Part shown: positions 1-7,800 of the stretch, piece by piece | How positions within the stretch are numbered: position 1 is the stretch's first letter | Layout of the letters: the number at the start of each line of letters is the position of its first letter | Source of the DNA: Eremomyces bilateralis CBS 781.70 | Lineage: Eukaryota | Assembly: GCA_010015585.1 (NCBI GenBank) | Contig: ML975151.1 | Direction: 5' to 3' (one strand) | Length of the DNA: 64,000 nucleotides | Made by a program: the position numbers and the translations under genes | The notes under the pieces: model-generated | The model's input: the letters and a program-made list of their open reading frames with translations, nothing else | What the model was told of the DNA's origin: nothing | The model's database searches: none

Positions 1-857
1 GTCCCAGCCACTCCCGGCCCCCAGGTCAGTCGTCAGTCGGCTGACATTATTTGTGTTAGCGGCTACATCGAGATGTGAAAGACAAAGTTCAGAGACAGAC
101 AGGCAAGTTTGCTGCGATGCAAGCCTCATGCAGTTTCGACGTTTTTCATCACATCGATTCAGCGCCAAAGTTGGGGGAGACTCGACAGGGGTGTGTGGGG
201 CGACACATTTGGTAGCCTTGTGGCCTTGTGGCCGACAACTGCAATGATTTGAGCAGAGGAGCTGGTGTTAGTTTAGATATTATGACATGAGAGGCTCTCG
301 CCGGCGTACATCTGGTGCACCGAATTATAAAAGGAGGAATATTCTGATTAGGACTTGTTGGTAAGACTTGAAGCCAGACTGCAGGGTGGTGATGAAGTTT
401 GTTCACTGACCTGTCCATATTAGTAGATATTGCGTAATTGGAATCTCGAAGATCGCATTAATCGGCTATTACGGCTCAGATAGAGCAGCAGCATAGTAAC
501 TTAAAGGTTGAATGGGGCCAAGGACCTCTTCTTTTATAAAATATATAAAGTTGGAGTTTTGATACGCCTTTGAATCTCCGGATCCTGACAGTTGCGAGAT
601 CCAGTTTGTATGGCATCTTAATCCAGACCAAAATTGATAAAAAAAGATTCAGTCCACACTCGCACCATCCCTATTGTCTTCATATATCTAGCTAGACCAT
701 GTGTCGGATGATGAGGTATGATGCGTGTACCGGAGCGTCGAAAGAACTGAAGGGAATTGTGAGAGAAAGAATCGAAGGATATGTATGGCAAAAACACTAA
801 CATGACGGTGCTTGAAGTGGCGTTGCGAACAGTGTGTCGAACCATGTCCCCTATCCA

Positions 858-1258
858 TTATCCGCCACTTTGAATCCAATCATGGAGTGATTTAATATTC
901 GTCCGGGATAGCAAAAGAGCCGTGTTGCCGGCGCTTTGGAGCTCATCCGTGGTGCGCTTGACCTTGTCGCATGGCTCATCGGGCCGATGGCAGAATCGGT
1001 GATACGCCTTAGGGCAAGCCGCGGCACGCTTGACCTTGCCGTAGGACTCACCAGGACGATAGTAGAATCGGCTCACGTTTCCGGGTCAGGTTCGGCCTTG
1101 GCCTTGGCCTTCGCGACGGCCTCGGCGAGGGCATTGGCGGCGCGCTTGACTTTGCCGCAGGGCTCGCCGGAACGGTGGCAGAAGCGGTCGGCTTCGGCGC
1201 AGCCGTAGGCGGTGCCAACGGCGACCGCAGAGGCCAGGAGAAAAGTGATAAGCTTCAT
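858..1258 (-). pseudogene. Alpha-factor-like (ccg-4/ppg1-type) pheromone precursor, frameshifted after repeat 1; a truncated 61-aa ORF remains at 1073..1258
   Basis: Signal peptide MKLITFLLASAVAVGTAYG. Three repeats RFCHRSGEPCG-KVKR, RFYYRPGESYG-KVKR and RFCHRPDEPCD-KVKR, each ending in a Kex2 KR site, with xA/xP (Ste13-type) dipeptide spacers. Repeats 2-3 lie in another frame after GAA ACG TGA at about 1073-1081. Confidence 0.8.
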
Positions 1259-1383
1259 GATGGTGTTCTTGGGTTCTTGAAAGAGGACCGTCTGGATCTG
1301 ATCGACTGAATGAAGAGTCTTTGGAAGAACGAAGGTGTTTGCGGGCGAAGAAAGAAAAGCAGATTGACGGTGCCGCAAAGGAC

Positions 1384-1581
1384 TTTTATACCTTTTAGGT
1401 CCGAAAAAAAGAAAGAAGAGAAGGATTCCCAGATAAAGGAAAAGATCAAGAATGATCCCCAATAGCCAGACTCGACTCGCTGCTGCTCATTCAATTCAAA
1501 TTCTCAACAAGATATCCGCAATAAAGCACAATAGCAGCAATAAAGTCTCATGCCCAAATCTTATTGAGGTTCTCCCAATAG
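1384..1581 (-). promoter_or_regulatory. Pheromone gene promoter: TATA box plus six YTATTG motifs (candidate MAT1-1-1 sites)
   Basis: TATAAAA on minus at 1384-1390. CAATAR/YTATTG at 1460, 1519, 1529, 1538, 1561 and 1576. Confidence 0.55.
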
Positions 1582-2648
1582 CGTTGCTCTCACCCAATGG
1601 GATAGAGGTGACAGGAATACTTCGTGAACTATGTACGGATCCGTTTTGCGAGTGAAGAAAGGAAGGGGTAAGTATTTCTTCTTCTTGGCCACCTTGGATG
1701 AAGGCTCAGACGGCAGAGTCAAAGGATAGCGCAACAGACCACTATAAGCGAGACCAGGGGACTTTTGGATGGCAGAAAGAGATCCGAACCGAGTTACTAG
1801 CAAAACAGGTCCCACAGCTAGATCTAACTGAAAGAAGGGCCAAATCTCGATTGTTCCAAATCTCAACTAGCGGAACACTTTTTTTCTCCCTTACTACGGC
1901 TGTGGACCAATTATGGGGGTAAGTGGTGGCATTTCGCTATTGATATCCGGATATGGATGTGAGGGGCCGATAGGGTTCAACGGAAATCTGAAGCAGTTTG
2001 CGGGACAAGAATCTAGATACATTGGAGTCATTTTCCATCCAAAGCAGCATGATCTGGTCAGTATTTCGGCTGTTGCCGCATACTCGGGCCATATTGCTCC
2101 TGAATGGATCCGTGTTGGGATTGGGCGTGACCGCGCGCAGTCAGTGGGATACCAGGGAATTGACCAGCAGATCAAAGCACAGGGATGACATAAATAGAAG
2201 CCATGATGAGTAAAAGGACATCCCCTTTAAATTTAATGACAAGAGCGAGGTTGATAGCCGCTATCCTGAATCACCATAGGTAGCTTTGACTGGTTCTTCT
2301 GAAGTATGAAACGTCCATGTATGCGTAGTTATACATGAGCAAAGTACGATTATCCTAGTCATTAACTTGGGGTTGGAAATATGAGTACAATTCACGACCA
2401 TGGGGAGTTACCAATATCGAAATGTGAATGATATATCTGCCGTTTTGAGGACGAGGTTGACACCTGATTCTGACGCGTTTGTTGTCGTGTTGTGGAGAGT
2501 TGAGCCTTGAGCCCTTGAGAGATAAAATTGAAGCTTGGACCATCGCGATGCTTGGCATATCCATATGTCTATCGCCAACATTCCGTATCTTCGAGGCCAA
2601 AATCACTCCGGGCGCCGTCAGGACGAACTCCGCATATGAATTACAGAA

Positions 2649-4734
2649 ATGCGCCCATTGCCTCCGCTTCTTTATCGGAGCTCCCTGAAACGGTGGTCTC
2701 GAATTTCTAAGAGCGGCTGGGTCTGCGCCAATTGCAGGAGCTATGCCTCACAAACGCCGCACCTCCGCCGTGATGGAGATGCTCCGCAGAAGCCATTTTA
2801 TGTGACCACGCCGATTTTTTATGTCAACGCCGGTGAGTACAGCCCGAGCATGTTTTCTCATGATAGTTTCACTCACGGATCGTAGCTCCCCATGTCGGCC
2901 ACCTCTATTCCATGGTGCTCGCCGATGTCCTGAAAAGATGGCAGCAACTGAAGGGAAACCGAGCTGTTTTGTGCACAGGAACGGACGAGCATGGCATGAA
3001 GGTTGGATTGTACCGCAATTATTGAGGGATTAGCTACCAACCGGCCTTTAGATACAAAGAGCTGCCAGACTGGCCAACATGGACCCGCAATCGTTTTGTG
3101 ACCAGGCAGCAGACGTCTTCAAGGTACGAGTGAGGTCTCGCGATGCATATCTCCAGCTAACGGACATATCATAGCGCCTAGCAGCCTCCGCAGACATCAC
3201 AAACGACCATTTTGTACGGACGACAGACGCCGATCATAAGGAAACAGTGCGATACGTTTGGGTGGGCATCCGAAAACGACCGGTCTCCTGTTGACGAGGG
3301 ACTTACAATTCGACAGCATGTCCTACAAGACCGCGGCTTGATCTACCGAGCGAAGCATGAAGGATGGTACTCCGTCAGCGATGAGACTTTCTACCCGGAG
3401 TCCCAAGTTCATTTGGTCCTAGAGCCGCAAACAGGGCGCAAAATCATGGCGTCTATTGAAACCGGAAAAGAGGTCGAGTGGACATCGGAGATGAACTATC
3501 ACTTTCGGCTTTCGCGATTTCGGGATCGGCTGCTGCAATATTACGACGAACACCCTGACTTTATTGTTCCCAACACCCGCATGACAGAGCTATACAAAGA
3601 GATCCAAAGCGGGTTGTCGGATTTATCAATTTCTCGGCCCAGAAGCCGCCTGGACTGGGGCATCCGAGTCCCGGATGATCAGGAACAGACAATATATGTA
3701 TGGCTGGATGCCTTGGTGAACTATATAACCAAAGCCGGTTATCCCTGGGCACCAGGCTATGAGGTTACTGGAGGCTGGCCGGTAGACTGCCATATCATCG
3801 GCAAGGACATCACCAGGTGAGTTGCGCACTGCCCTGCGTCGTCTATGGGTCGTCTAATGCATTTAGATTCCACTGCATATACTGGCCCGCCTTCCTCATG
3901 GCCTTGGGCATTGAGCTGCCGAGTCAGATATTGACCCATGGCCACTGGACGTTAGGCCGGAAGAAGATGTCCAAATCGGAGGGCAACGGCGTCAACCCCT
4001 TCTTCCAAATCGACCGATTCGGTGTCGACGTCGTCCGATTCTTTCTGATGCACGATGGCGGGATCGACTTCGATCCCGAATATAATAACTTCATCATCAT
4101 CGAACGATATAACGACGCGTTGAAAAGCGTGATCGGCAATCAAGTCAGCCGCGTCCTTCGCGGAAAGTCCTGGGATACTCGTTACGCCGTTACGGAGATG
4201 GATAGGCTTTGCCAACAAACTCTGACTCCGGCCGACCGGGAACAGCTGCATTTGCTGCAGACGTTCCCGACGAAGTTTCAAGCCAGTATGGACAATCTAA
4301 ATGTCCGCGAGGGCGTCACGTCCGTCGTTCAAATGCTGCGTCAGGTAGGTTGACTGAAATCTCATACACTGCAACCGTTGACAGTTCGACAGACCCAGAA
4401 ATACTTTCAAGTTTGCGAGCCATGGTCGTATTTCAGTGCGGAAGCACGAAAGCGTCGACAAGACTCCCCGATATCCCCCGAAGACAACGACAAGGTGCAC
4501 TTGGCCATCGCACTGACGTTAGAGTCATTCCGGCTCGCTGCCATCACGCTGCAACCGGTTATGCCAGAGAGGGCCGGCACGCTACTAGACTGGCTGAATG
4601 TCAGCCTAGAGAGACGATCATTCGCGTTCGCAACACTGGGTGCAGACAAAGAATACGGTGATCGTAGTCATTTGGTCAAAGTCAGTCCAGACCAGAAGCT
4701 GATATTGTTCCCAACCCTCATTACTGAGGAGTAA
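2649..4734 (+). CDS. MSM1: Mitochondrial methionyl-tRNA synthetase (about 7 exons)
   Basis: R/S-rich N-terminal targeting peptide; [16 protein letters not shown] (HIGH-like), [26 protein letters not shown] motifs, joined across GT-AG introns (e.g. 2833-2885, 3818-3867). Confidence 0.93.
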
Positions 4735-4841
4735 AAGCGGCTCTGTGGACTGTGGAGGCTTGAGCCCCTGGATTATTCAGACTAATCTCCGAAAGAATTG
4801 TGTGATTACATAATGTATCAACAACCATGTAACAACAGTAC

Positions 4842-7800
4842 CTATAGCTGTTCAACACCGGATAATACCCTGTTGAGACAGTTGATGTCGTTATCCGCCC
4901 CTCGCAGATCGTCGAGAGTTTTGAAACTGGACACGTTAGTGTGTGGCTATCATGCACGTGGTCGACGCCTTACATTCTTTGCAACCGTCGTTGCTCAGTA
5001 CTCTCTTCCAGCTCCTTGGACTTCACCGCAGCCATATCAACAACCGACCTCGGAACATTGGCAAGTCGCGCGACATTCAAGCTAGAGGCGTCAGTGCAGA
5101 TCCCGGTGTACCGGATGGAAGAACCTACCCATATGATCGATGCGCCATTCCTTCGCCCACCTCATACAAGAACGTGACCACTTCCTCCCCATCGTCTCGC
5201 GTATTTTCCTTGAACTTCATATGCACATTCTGGAGCCGACCGTCGAGCTCACCCGCAAGTAGGCCGAGAAGTTGGTAATGCGTAACGAACAACAGCATGC
5301 ACCCGATGTCTTCAACGATGTGTCGGCACACCGCCTCGGCGATGGCGCAGCCATCATGCGTGCTCGTACCTCTACCCAGCTCGTCCAGTAATACGAGGCT
5401 GCGCGGCGTCGCTTGGCGCAAGATCTCGGCCGTTTCGCCGAGCTCGACCATAAACGTACTCTCGCCTTTCATCATGTTGTCGTTGGCACCCATTCGGGTG
5501 AAGACCGCATCCAGGAGTGTGAGTTCTGCGGATTCGGCCGGGATATAGGATCCGATCTGCGCGAGGATGCTGATGAGGGCGGTTTGTCGAACGTAGGATG
5601 ACTTTCCTCCCATGTTTGGGCCGGTGATGAGCAGAGCGCTGGGTGTGACAATTTCGTTCTCCTCGGATCCATTCTCGTCGATTGCATTGGCGTTGGACCC
5701 GCTTCGTAGCTTGATGTCGTTGGGCACATATGCATCTAGAAGGAGCTGTTCCACCATCGGGTGTCTGCCTCCAGCTATGCGAATTTCCGGCTCTTCGATG
5801 AAGGTTGGCTTGCTGTAGCCTGGCTGATTGGCAATCTCTGCTAGCGAGAGCAGGCAATCCAGTGTTGCAAGAGCATGGATCGTATCTCGAAGTTCTTGAT
5901 ATTCAGCGCCAATCGCCTCCAACAGCTCCTTGAACGCATCATCACAGGCAGCCGCGAGAGACTCTTTGTGCTGATCTCGCTTTCGCAAAAACTTGACCAC
6001 TTCTGGCGTGTGGAACCTCGAGATCCTCTTGGTCCCACTGATCTTAATCCAGGATGCAGGGACCTTCTTCACCTCATTGTTTTCAACTTCAATGAGGTAC
6101 TCGATCCCCGAACTGGTCATATAATTGACTTTGCTCTTTTTGATTGTTGCTGCTGCATCGGCACGATGGGCGTCGAGCTTCTCCTCGTACTCCTTGATAC
6201 CATTTTTATGCTCCTTTATCGCCTCCGTTTCGTACTCCTCACGAAAGAAAGTATATTTTTCGTCATCTCGGGCTGATTTCGCGTTGACCTGCTCTAGAAA
6301 GCGAACGATGCAGTCGTTGATTCTCGGCAGAGTCGAAACCAACTCGTTGAGGATGGTTGAGGAGAAACCGGCACTGGACGGTTCGGTGACATCTGCGTAC
6401 TCGTTCGAAACTCGCTGCAACGTCTGCAGCATTCCAAGAAGCTCCGGTCTGCTAGACTTTTTGTAATACACCCGGACCAGGATCTTTTCGAGATCGCTCT
6501 TGACCGATTTCACCAACTGGCGGACCTTCTCTACAGCAGCAGATAGCTGTCCATCCTTCAGTTCTTCCACTGCCTGGACTCGCTCCTCCAGCTCCTTGCG
6601 GTCCAGTAATGGACGTCCTACCCATTTCTTGAGGAGTCTATGTCCAAATCGTGTTTTCGTCCGATCCACGGTCCAGAACAAGCTTCCTTTCTCGGAATAG
6701 TCGGTTTGATTCTGGAAGATCTCCAGACTTGTAAGTGTGTTTCCGTTGAGGAGCATGTGAGTCCGCGAACTGAACGGTTGGAAATATTTGGTGAGGTCAA
6801 AAACGTGTTCCAGCCCGTATTCACTCAAGTGGTTGATCAGAGCGGAGAGAGAGATCGTAACATGCTCGGAAAGCTGATGGACCTTGTCGAGAACTTGGGA
6901 AGACTCCTCCGCGTTGGACTCCGATTGACTGGCCTTGAATTTCTCCGCATAGAAGTTGGAGATGTGGTTGTAAGATTCCGCTGCAGCCGTCTTGGACTTT
7001 TCGATGCGCTCGATTCGGGCTTGGTCCCCGAAGACGTTGCTCTTGCTCCCAGTCAAATGTTTGATCATTTTTTCCGTGGCATTGGAGAGATCGCCAACAA
7101 TGAGGAACTCGCTTGGAGCAATATGCAGTAACCGAGTCTCAATTTCCGCTCGCATGAATCCGTCTTCGAAATCGTCGTAGATGATATCTCCGGTGGCCGG
7201 CTGGACCGCCACGATGCCCACCTGGACCTTTTCATCGGTTCCCCAGCCTTTGGCATTCGTTTCGGTTAGGCACAGTATATACCCAGATGACGGAGTTCCG
7301 GAACCAGCAACGGGCATTGGTCCGGAAATGCCCTCCATGTCGTCCACATAGGTTGCTTTCGTATACAGGTTGGTAAGTTTTCGAACGAAAGGAGCATTCC
7401 GATTGTCACCAGCCGCTTTCAAGGCGGCTGTCTCAATCTGGCGAACCACGCCTACTTTGTGTCCTGCTGCTACCAATCGCTTCACGTGGACGTGGAGACG
7501 GTGGACCGGGATACTCGCAGAGGCAAATCGATCCAGATGGGCTTCCGAGAAATGTTCATCGTATCTGAACTTCCCAGGGATGCAGACAATTCCAAGTTCC
7601 TTTGCTGCAATCCGTGCATCTTCTCCAAAGAACCGAAATTTGTAGCCGACCTCGACCACAAGCACTGTGTCTGGGTGCTTATGCTTAATGTCCAGAACCT
7701 GTACCTCCATGGGCGTAAGCTTGGTCGCCTTCTTTTTACCACCGGCCGCCTTTTTCCCTTTCTGGCCGGATTTCGGAGCCGGGTCGGGCGCGTCTTCATT

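What the first reader, a model, noticed from the sequence alone, without database searches (positions are those of the whole stretch)
858..1258. Alpha-factor-like pheromone precursor caught mid-decay: one intact peptide, two degenerate out-of-frame copies
Seen: a signal peptide and three KVKR-terminated repeats. A 1-nt loss (plausibly TGG AGC to TG AGC) creates TGA after EPDPET and strands repeats 2-3. Relative to the repeat consensus, the residue changes are single G>A/C>T transitions: C>Y twice (TGC>TAC), H>Y (CAT>TAT), G>D twice, and probably EA>KA in the spacer. Several are in CpA/TpG context. Established: ccg-4/ppg1/ppgA precursors carry repeated Cys-x-x-x-Gly-x-x-Cys peptides cut by Kex2/Ste13, and RIP causes CpA>TpA. 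Inference: either mating signalling is being lost (selfing or asexual lineage) or the gene survives as a single-peptide precursor, since repeat 1 lies upstream of the lesion.
Basis: partly seen in the sequence, partly recalled or inferred. Interest (0 to 1): 0.7.

Follow-up and report, generated by a model that had tools for sequence, protein, structure and literature searches.

The report
Decaying fungal alpha-pheromone gene, dead receptor
This is a real fungal mating-pheromone gene, broken by a frameshift after its first peptide copy, in a dung fungus that carries both mating-type genes and whose matching receptor gene is also wrecked; the same paired loss is already described in other fungi.

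Summary
The gene is on the minus strand (ATG 1258): signal peptide, one complete Cys-Gly-Cys repeat, TGA at 1075, then two stranded repeats. DNA contigs and an RNA contig of a second study carry the same letters, so the frameshift is not an assembly error, and no plausible intron rescues it. It is an alpha-factor (ppg1/ccg-4/ppgA-type) precursor: 198 homologs, some named pheromone precursors, and a cluster of MAT1-1-1-type promoter motifs. The host is Eremomyces bilateralis (name on the gene's public record). The only STE2 receptor match in the genome is a pseudogene (frameshift, nonsense codon, about 195 profile positions deleted). STE3, MAT1-1-1 and MAT1-2-1 are intact, the two MAT genes on separate contigs. 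Best reading: a probably self-fertile fungus has let its alpha-pheromone/Ste2 pair decay. RIP is not supported: changes are C>T-biased but not CpA-enriched (3 of 14), and both G>D, H>Y and P>S occur in homologs. Paired decay is published for Colletotrichum, Ambrosiella and Hymenoscyphus; I found no Dothideomycete case. The scan had already noted the STE2 remnant (e1-7705138), not this precursor.

The parts
1460..1581 (-). Promoter cluster of three CTATTG motifs (1460-1465, 1529-1534, 1576-1581), core of the MAT1-1-1 binding consensus, plus three TATTG half matches
   Evidence: 2 of 3247 200-nt windows over about 164 kb of this genome hold three or more copies, and both overlap this promoter. 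Consensus CTATTGAG from PMC10512297 passages. Binding is inferred, not shown.
1383..1390 (-). TATA-like box (TATAAAAG), about 130 nt upstream of the ATG
   Evidence: Sequence; function inferred
1202..1258 (-). Start codon and hydrophobic signal-peptide-like segment (about 19 aa)
   Evidence: aligns with N-termini of homologs. No signal-peptide predictor was available; cleavage site inferred.
1187..1201 (-). Short pro-segment CAEAD with two X-Ala dipeptides (Ste13-type)
   Evidence: site definition from PMC10569646 section 8
1142..1186 (-). Repeat 1, in frame, both Cys, ends in KR (Kex2 site); Ser in place of the usual Pro before Gly
1076..1141 (-). Ala/Glu/Pro-rich spacer ending in EP-DP dipeptides
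   Evidence: homologous spacers in alignment A3
1071..1075 (-). Frameshift site (net -1) and premature TGA (1075-1073)
   Evidence: same letters in contigs of runs X1, X2 and X3
1026..1070 (-). Repeat 2, out of frame, both Cys changed to Tyr
   Evidence: no unit without both Cys was found among the 149 homologs scanned
954..998 (-). Repeat 3, out of frame, both Cys kept, two Gly>Asp; no X-Ala/X-Pro run directly in front
   Evidence: each Gly>Asp also occurs in published Pseudogymnoascus repeats
858..953 (-). Tail of the stranded frame to TAA; the last 18 codons lose the coding-like GC3 (0.39 against 0.80 in ORF1)
   Evidence: possibly read-through past a lost original stop (inference)
361..423 (+). 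GT..AG intron with branch site, on the opposite strand, apparently skipped by the RNA contig that also covers the pheromone gene
   Evidence: table 7 (loose end at 423 equals window 330-359); intron sequence printed; inferred

Best explanation
The locus is the single alpha-factor pheromone precursor gene of Eremomyces bilateralis, decaying because its signal no longer has a receiver. The ancestral protein was secreted, cut by Kex2 at KR and trimmed by Ste13/Kex1 into at least three disulfide-looped peptides for the Ste2 receptor (established for the family; inferred here). The fungus carries intact MAT1-2-1 at the usual MAT position and intact MAT1-1-1 on another contig (shown), so it is probably self-fertile (inferred). 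Its STE2 is destroyed and STE3 is intact (shown). With the alpha channel dispensable, the precursor took a 1-nt frameshift and two Cys>Tyr changes (shown) by relaxed selection under a general C>T mutation bias (inferred). At most one peptide can still be made, and it has no Ste2 receptor in this genome. The receptor has more and larger lesions than the precursor, so it probably began to decay first (weak inference).
For: Family: 198 homologs at E<=0.001; of 19 homologs looked up, one cluster is named pheromone precursor protein 1 (Neofusicoccum) and one carries the UniRef name ccg-4 (Stachybotrys), the rest hypothetical or unnamed; near-identical motif in published Pseudogymnoascus alpha-factors; MAT1-1-1-type motif cluster in the promoter, and an exact CTATTGAG upstream of STE3. 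Single copy: a homolog query finds only this locus in G000. Lesion real: 3 of 4 runs laid cover it without indel or other letters, one an RNA run of another study. STE2 remnant G000:C4:1499161-1498701: frameshift, TAA, and Pfam STE2 positions 34-52 joined directly to 247-279 of 280 (27.8 bits, two stretches); no other STE2 candidate. STE3 matches positions 1-292 across one 49-nt intron. MAT1-2-1 (413 aa) lies between a PH/MMM1 gene and an exonuclease/GRF (APN2-like) gene, ANAPC5 and CIA30 on C15; MAT1-1-1 (414 aa if only its first intron is spliced) lies between an aminotransferase and an AAA ATPase inside the 813-kb C9. The species is described with no asexual morph.
Against: Repeat 1, the signal segment and the promoter motifs are intact; only 1 of 9 amino-acid changes falls in repeat 1 (about 0.14 by a simple binomial worked by hand, not significant). 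Single-peptide alpha precursors are described as normal in three Ceratocystidaceae genera. Self-fertility was not shown by culture in any paper I read; homothallism rests on gene content. The Ceratocystidaceae study found no general link between mating strategy and pheromone loss. No intact ortholog from a close relative was found, so lesions cannot be dated or ordered. One assembly, and possibly one strain, underlies everything. The genome search is not exhaustive, so a second divergent STE2 is unlikely but not excluded.
Confidence: 0.78

Rival explanations
1. The truncated 61-aa precursor is kept by selection: it releases one peptide that acts through another receptor, or on other fungi, after Ste2 was lost.
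For: Intact ATG, signal segment, X-Ala dipeptides, both Cys, KR site and a strong promoter motif cluster. Repeat 1 has 1 of the 9 amino-acid changes. Colletotrichum tofieldiae has a 91-aa single-repeat precursor and no receptor.
Against: The skew towards repeats 2-3 is not significant, and recent decay also leaves most features intact. Sense-strand expression is not shown; the one RNA contig carries an opposite-strand intron. No alternative receptor is identified.
Confidence: 0.1
2. RIP mutated the internal repeats of the gene, directly or by leakage, and so started the decay.
For: 14 of 18 differing columns and 9 of 9 amino-acid changes are C>T/G>A; p=0.005 to 0.026 if such transitions are 5 to 8 times more frequent than other changes. 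All three CpA changes are in repeat 2. The STE2 stop is TAA where Gln (CAA) is expected (recalled motif). A 763-aa RID-like methyltransferase ORF is present (the RID label is my recall of its architecture). Unchecked scan notes report RIP in transposons of this genome.
Against: CpA 3 of 14 against 1.84 expected, p=0.28; CpC 5, CpG 5, CpT 1. Composite RIP index -0.83 in the gene; only 1 1-kb window of the 64-kb window is above zero (0.02) and none in the 19 kb on its left. Units are about 60 nt at 69-76% identity, far below the lengths and identities that I recall RIP needs. RIP does not make indels or large deletions. Polarity was assumed (C/G ancestral) at transition columns.
Confidence: 0.07
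3. The frameshift is an assembly error, is spliced around, or arose only in the sequenced culture.
For: Homologous precursor genes often carry an intron in the spacer (L028, L034, L038). The public model P0005 uses a 1036-nt intron from 1076 to 41 with a good branch site and acceptor. All runs may come from one strain; contigs drop rare isoforms.
Against: Contigs of three runs agree letter for letter. Of 79 in-frame splice candidates, none with a GT donor has a branch motif, and the 3 with a branch motif remove repeat 1. The public model also yields only repeat 1. Three separate lesions in STE2 plus Cys losses here are unlikely to arise in culture (inference).
Confidence: 0.03
4. It is a non-pheromone Kex2-processed repeat protein.
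For: No Pfam family passes its cut-off; 17 of the 19 homolog representatives looked up are hypothetical or unnamed throughout their clusters; no shared neighbours with 15 homolog loci.
Against: Named pheromone precursors among the homologs, match to published alpha-factor repeats, MAT1-1-1-type promoter motifs here, at STE3 and at homologous precursors, single copy.
Confidence: 0.02

Closest known systems
Pezizomycotina alpha-factor precursors (ppg1 / ccg-4 / ppgA); nearest named hit in its own class: Neofusicoccum parvum pheromone precursor protein 1 (P0082); nearest published motif: Pseudogymnoascus FCWRPGQPCGKV (PMC10569646 Table S3)
   Same: Signal segment, X-Ala/X-Pro dipeptides, repeated two-Cys peptide with central Gly, KxKR ends, Ala-rich spacers; CTATTG promoter motifs
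   Different: Only one repeat in frame; repeat 2 lacks both Cys; no intron; repeats differ at 3-6 of 10 core positions against a median of 1 in 110 homologs, though 25 of 110 also differ by 3 or more
Colletotrichum alpha-pheromone and preB losses (PMC8661429, sections 15 part 1 and 17)
   Same: Point lesions in the precursor (stop at aa 44 in C. godetiae), single-repeat precursor without receptor (C. tofieldiae), receptor broken by frameshifts, stops and indels
   Different: Colletotrichum has MAT1-2-1 only; here both MAT genes are intact, and the class is Dothideomycetes (class from PMC4150071)
Ambrosiella (PMC13037118) and Hymenoscyphus repandus (PMC10569646)
   Same: Homothallic fungi with an eroded or deleted alpha receptor and an absent or divergent alpha precursor, while sex continues in Ambrosiella
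   Different: In Ambrosiella the precursor is gone and in H. repandus the receptor is gone; here both remnants are still readable, and the promoter motifs are in place

Membership tests
alpha-factor pheromone precursor (ppg1/ccg-4/ppgA) | N-terminal signal peptide | tested here: met
   Hydrophobic N-terminus that aligns with homologs; no dedicated predictor run
alpha-factor pheromone precursor (ppg1/ccg-4/ppgA) | 9-14 aa peptide preceded by X-Ala/X-Pro (Ste13) and followed by KR (Kex2) | tested here: met
   Repeat 1: CA-EA before, KVKR after; definition from PMC10569646 section 8. Repeat 3 lacks the dipeptide run directly in front.
alpha-factor pheromone precursor (ppg1/ccg-4/ppgA) | Several repeats in one reading frame (typical, not universal) | tested here: not met
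   One in frame, two stranded. Single-peptide precursors are described in Ceratocystis, Davidsoniella and Endoconidiophora, so this marks decay, not non-membership.
alpha-factor pheromone precursor (ppg1/ccg-4/ppgA) | Sequence homology to annotated precursors | tested here: met
   198 hits; named members; BLASTP to P0082 E=2e-07 pairwise
alpha-factor pheromone precursor (ppg1/ccg-4/ppgA) | MAT1-1-1-type promoter motif | tested here: met
   Three CTATTG within 122 nt, top of 3247 windows; 6 of 7 homolog promoters examined (7 of 15 loci; two are near-identical) have at least one, against 96 of 532 background windows. Motif; binding not tested.
alpha-factor pheromone precursor (ppg1/ccg-4/ppgA) | Conserved gene neighbourhood | tested here: inconclusive
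   0 of 15 homolog loci share neighbours at E<=1e-6; hosts are distant or unknown, and weak synteny is reported for these genes
alpha-factor pheromone precursor (ppg1/ccg-4/ppgA) | Mature peptide activates a cognate Ste2 receptor | not testable with these tools
   The genome's own STE2 is a pseudogene, so the cognate pair cannot function here
RIP-inactivated gene | C>T changes enriched at CpA/TpG | tested here: not met
   3 of 14, expected 1.84, p=0.28; small sample. CpA context from PMC12543289 passages
RIP-inactivated gene | Long near-identical duplication or adjacent RIP-affected block | tested here: not met
   62-nt units at 69-76%, no paralog, RIP index negative in gene and flanks; thresholds recalled
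RIP-inactivated gene | RIP machinery in the genome | tested here: inconclusive
   Two C5-methyltransferase loci with open frames; RID-like and DNMT5-like labels are recalled, activity untested
Primary homothallism with unlinked MAT genes | Intact MAT1-1-1 and MAT1-2-1 in one genome, neither on an orphan contig | tested here: met
   C9:180775 and C15:424355, both inside large contigs with flanking genes; mixed-culture criterion from PMC10569646 discussion
Primary homothallism with unlinked MAT genes | Self-fertility of single-spore cultures | not testable with these tools
   No statement on thallism in the PMC4150071 passages

The most novel reading that the evidence does not exclude
After losing Ste2, this fungus kept a MAT1-1-1-driven, single-peptide alpha-factor under selection: the frameshift pruned two dispensable copies, and the remaining peptide acts through a non-Ste2 receptor or on the Ste2 receptors of competing dung fungi, possibly held in check by an antisense RNA that runs across the gene.
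Probability: 0.1. Interest if true: 0.7.

Novelty: new member of a known kind. Interest (0 to 1): 0.35.

Why it matters
It is a clean snapshot of a ligand and its receptor decaying together after a probable shift to selfing, with the other channel (STE3) intact and both fossils still readable. It extends a pattern published for Sordariomycetes and Leotiomycetes to a Dothideomycete; my searches found no such report for this species or class, but most subscription journals are not in the library. Because the species is known only from its sexual stage, it offers a natural test of whether the a-factor/Ste3 pair alone, or no pheromone, is enough for fruiting. It also shows that the public gene model hides the lesion behind a 1-kb predicted intron.

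Tried and rejected
Word-index protein searches found nothing: ORF1 against longer proteins (0 of 812 candidates), STE2 remnant twice (0 of 104 and 0 of 33); weak evidence, since the full HMMER scan found 198 homologs of the precursor. No intact STE2 from a relative could be fetched, so the deletion is sized on the Pfam profile only. The STE2 N-terminal piece matched nothing in Pfam or the Atlas; it is assigned by position and by a recalled motif. PDB searches with the remnant were blank. Atlas search with ORF1 gave one unnamed Ascomycota cluster at 0.82, a lead only. Pfam had no family above cut-off for either ORF of the precursor. Peptide-string search of papers found nothing relevant. Synteny with 15 metagenome loci: none. 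Run X4 laid no contig; not evidence of absence. No RNA holder is on record as RNA; X3 behaves as RNA because it skips eight introns of neighbouring genes, but contigs give no strand or level. I looked for a broken Bar1-type protease among 16 aspartyl-protease matches (13 loci read): no ortholog could be assigned, dropped. The RIP length threshold was not found in the paper read and stays recalled. The Sordaria double-mutant result (one pheromone/receptor pair suffices) is recalled; one search showed only the reference. Rejected: asexual lineage, RIP as main cause, assembly indel, splice rescue, non-pheromone repeat protein. Supplement files 13 and 14 and six pptx files of PMC10569646 were not seen and may hold receptor alignments.

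Full report
1. Observation. The gene is on the minus strand. ORF1 (1258-1073) encodes 61 aa: a hydrophobic N-terminus, CAEAD, repeat 1 (RFCHRSGEPCGKVKR), an Ala-rich spacer ending EPDPET, and TGA. Repeats 2 (RFYYRPGESYGKVKR, 1070-1026) and 3 (RFCHRPDEPCDKVKR, 998-954) are in another frame that closes at 860-858. Five bases lie between the last ORF1 codon and repeat 2, a net -1 shift. The three copies are 62 nt at 69-76% identity.

2. The lesion is real. Of 4 runs laid on 400-5200, 3 cover the gene with no other letters, no indel and no joint inside it; the fourth laid nothing. X1 and X2 are DNA of one sample and may be the assembly's source. X3 is from another study and behaves as RNA: it skips eight GT..AG introns in neighbouring genes. 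All may be one strain. Homologous precursor genes often have an intron in the spacer (3 loci printed), so I enumerated in-frame splice rescues: 79 candidates, none with both a GT donor and a branch motif; the 3 with a branch motif have GC donors and remove repeat 1. The X3 contig over the gene (423-1575) continues with letters from 330-359, which implies a plus-strand intron at 361-423. It may therefore be antisense RNA, and it neither shows sense expression nor excludes a rare sense splice.

3. What it is. A profile of ORF1 plus repeat 3 finds 198 proteins at E<=0.001; the best 150 were read. Nearly all are secreted-type repeat proteins with two-Cys units ending KxKR: 357 units in 143 of 149 proteins (my own gene's record left out; hits uncurated, P0027 looks spurious). 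One hit, P0005, is the public model of this gene, named Eremomyces bilateralis, KAF1815873.1. It splices 1076 to 41 (1036 nt; the eight introns seen in RNA are 47-55 nt) and also yields only repeat 1. Of 19 other proteins looked up, one cluster is named pheromone precursor protein 1 (Neofusicoccum) and one ccg-4 (Stachybotrys); the rest are hypothetical or unnamed. Published Pseudogymnoascus alpha-factors have the same motif. The promoter holds three CTATTG within 122 nt, the densest cluster in about 164 kb (2 of 3247 windows, both here); STE3 has an exact CTATTGAG upstream; 6 of 7 homolog promoters examined have at least one, against 96 of 532 background windows. CTATTGAG is the MAT1-1-1 consensus of Penicillium chrysogenum, whose targets include ppg1 and pre1 (PMC10512297 passages). 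The gene is single-copy. Neighbours are a SAM-PH gene, a methionyl-tRNA synthetase and a MutS-family gene; 0 of 15 homolog loci share them.

4. The receptor and the mating genes. STE2 gave no match at E<=0.001 and one weak match at E<=10. That locus (G000:C4:1499161-1498701, 461 nt, no N) has an ATG and Ser/Thr-rich N-terminus, a 1-nt frameshift, a TAA in the stretch leading into helix 1, and then helix 1 joined to helix 7: Pfam STE2 positions 34-52 followed directly by 247-279 of 280 (27.8 bits, cut-off 27.2). I could not lay reads on it. STE3 covers positions 1-292 with one 49-nt intron and an open frame. MAT1-2-1 (413 aa, two introns) lies on C15 beside a PH/MMM1 gene, an APN2-like exonuclease/GRF gene, ANAPC5 and CIA30; that this is the usual MAT neighbourhood is recalled, except APN2. 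MAT1-1-1 is open, on the 813-kb C9 between an aminotransferase and an AAA ATPase. A mixed culture normally leaves the second idiomorph on an orphan contig (PMC10569646 discussion part 1); that is not the case. The species is described as cleistothecial, coprophilous and without asexual morph (PMC4150071 passages).

5. The substitutions. Over 17 codons, 18 columns differ between the repeats; 14 are C>T/G>A, including 9 of 9 amino-acid changes (C/G assumed ancestral). That bias exceeds a 5-fold transition excess (p=0.005) and is marginal at 8-fold (p=0.026); the organism's true spectrum is unknown. Contexts are CpC 5, CpG 5, CpA 3, CpT 1, with no CpA enrichment (p=0.28). The composite RIP index is -0.83 in the gene and negative in both flanks. 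A RID-like ORF exists, so RIP may act elsewhere, but these short, diverged units are poor substrates (thresholds recalled) and RIP does not explain indels. Most changes are also seen in homologs: Tyr for His 78, Asp for Gly 8 and 12, Ser for Pro 9 and 26 of 357 units; each Gly>Asp occurs in Pseudogymnoascus species listed with intact receptors. The firm signs of decay are the frameshift and the two Cys>Tyr changes.

6. Mechanism. Shown: alpha-type precursor with one in-frame peptide; STE2 destroyed; STE3 and both MAT genes intact. Inferred: self-fertility made the alpha channel dispensable, and receptor and ligand decay under relaxed selection (0.78). Rivals: retained single peptide with another target (0.10), RIP (0.07), artefact, splice or culture mutation (0.03), non-pheromone repeat protein (0.02). 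Against my reading: repeat 1, signal segment and promoter are intact; single-peptide precursors can be normal; one family-wide study found no link between mating strategy and such losses.

7. Comparison and novelty. Colletotrichum lost the alpha precursor at least 10 times, once by a stop at aa 44, and preB by frameshifts, stops and indels; C. tofieldiae keeps a single-repeat precursor without receptor (PMC8661429 abstract, section 15 part 1, section 17, passages). Homothallic Ambrosiella lack the precursor and have receptors eroded by deletions (PMC13037118 passages, sections 13, 16, 17 part 1). Homothallic Hymenoscyphus repandus has a deleted ste2 and a divergent precursor (PMC10569646 abstract, sections 8, 20, 24, 27 part 1, Table S3 part 2). 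PMC12543289 and PMC7162830 were seen as passages only. Searches (listings only) showed no report for Eremomyces or another Dothideomycete. The scan had noted the STE2 remnant before (seen after I had found it) and an a-factor candidate that I did not check; it had no note on this precursor.

8. Verdict. Real, correctly identified, and better explained by paired loss with its receptor than by RIP. New member of a known kind; interest 0.35.

Noticed in passing
G000:C4:1499161-1498701 (L010 1763-1303, minus): STE2 pseudogene: 1-nt frameshift, nonsense codon, in-frame deletion of about 195 Pfam positions joining helix 1 to helix 7.
   Followed up: yes
G000:C9:180775 (L006) and G000:C15:424355 (L021): MAT1-1-1 sits away from the MAT neighbourhood, between an aminotransferase and an AAA ATPase, while MAT1-2-1 lies beside the APN2-like gene, ANAPC5 and CIA30: unlinked MAT genes. 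An unidentified 239-aa open frame (C15:426803-427519, no Pfam match) lies between MAT1-2-1 and the APN2-like gene.
   Followed up: partly
window 361-423 and 423-1575: The RNA contig over the pheromone gene seems to skip a plus-strand intron and ends at 1575, 36 and 55 nt after two plus-strand AATAAA (1539, 1520): a possible antisense transcript. The AATAAA overlap promoter half-sites, so this is ambiguous.
   Followed up: partly
window 41-1076: The public gene model (P0005) bridges the premature stop with a 1036-nt intron; the acceptor at 41 has a perfect branch site, but no RNA contig showed a loose end at the donor.
   Followed up: partly
G000:C9:688052 (L025) and G000:C2:857516 (L026): Only two C5-methyltransferase loci were found, RID-like and DNMT5-like by recalled architecture; no DIM-2-like match appeared (the search is not exhaustive).
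   Followed up: no
L030-L032, match region: A metagenome fungus holds a second, shorter precursor piece with variant repeats and an aberrant last KR site, next to a different gene set from L028/L029: possibly a decaying duplicate.
   Followed up: no
L054 and L056 (G000:C4:928899, C1:1000391): Two closely similar aspartyl-protease-like membrane proteins without the DTG/DSG catalytic motif; several more such inactive-looking members (L052, L057, L060).
   Followed up: no
L010 1069-1170: Short tandem duplication (about 40 nt) downstream of the STE2 remnant.
   Followed up: no
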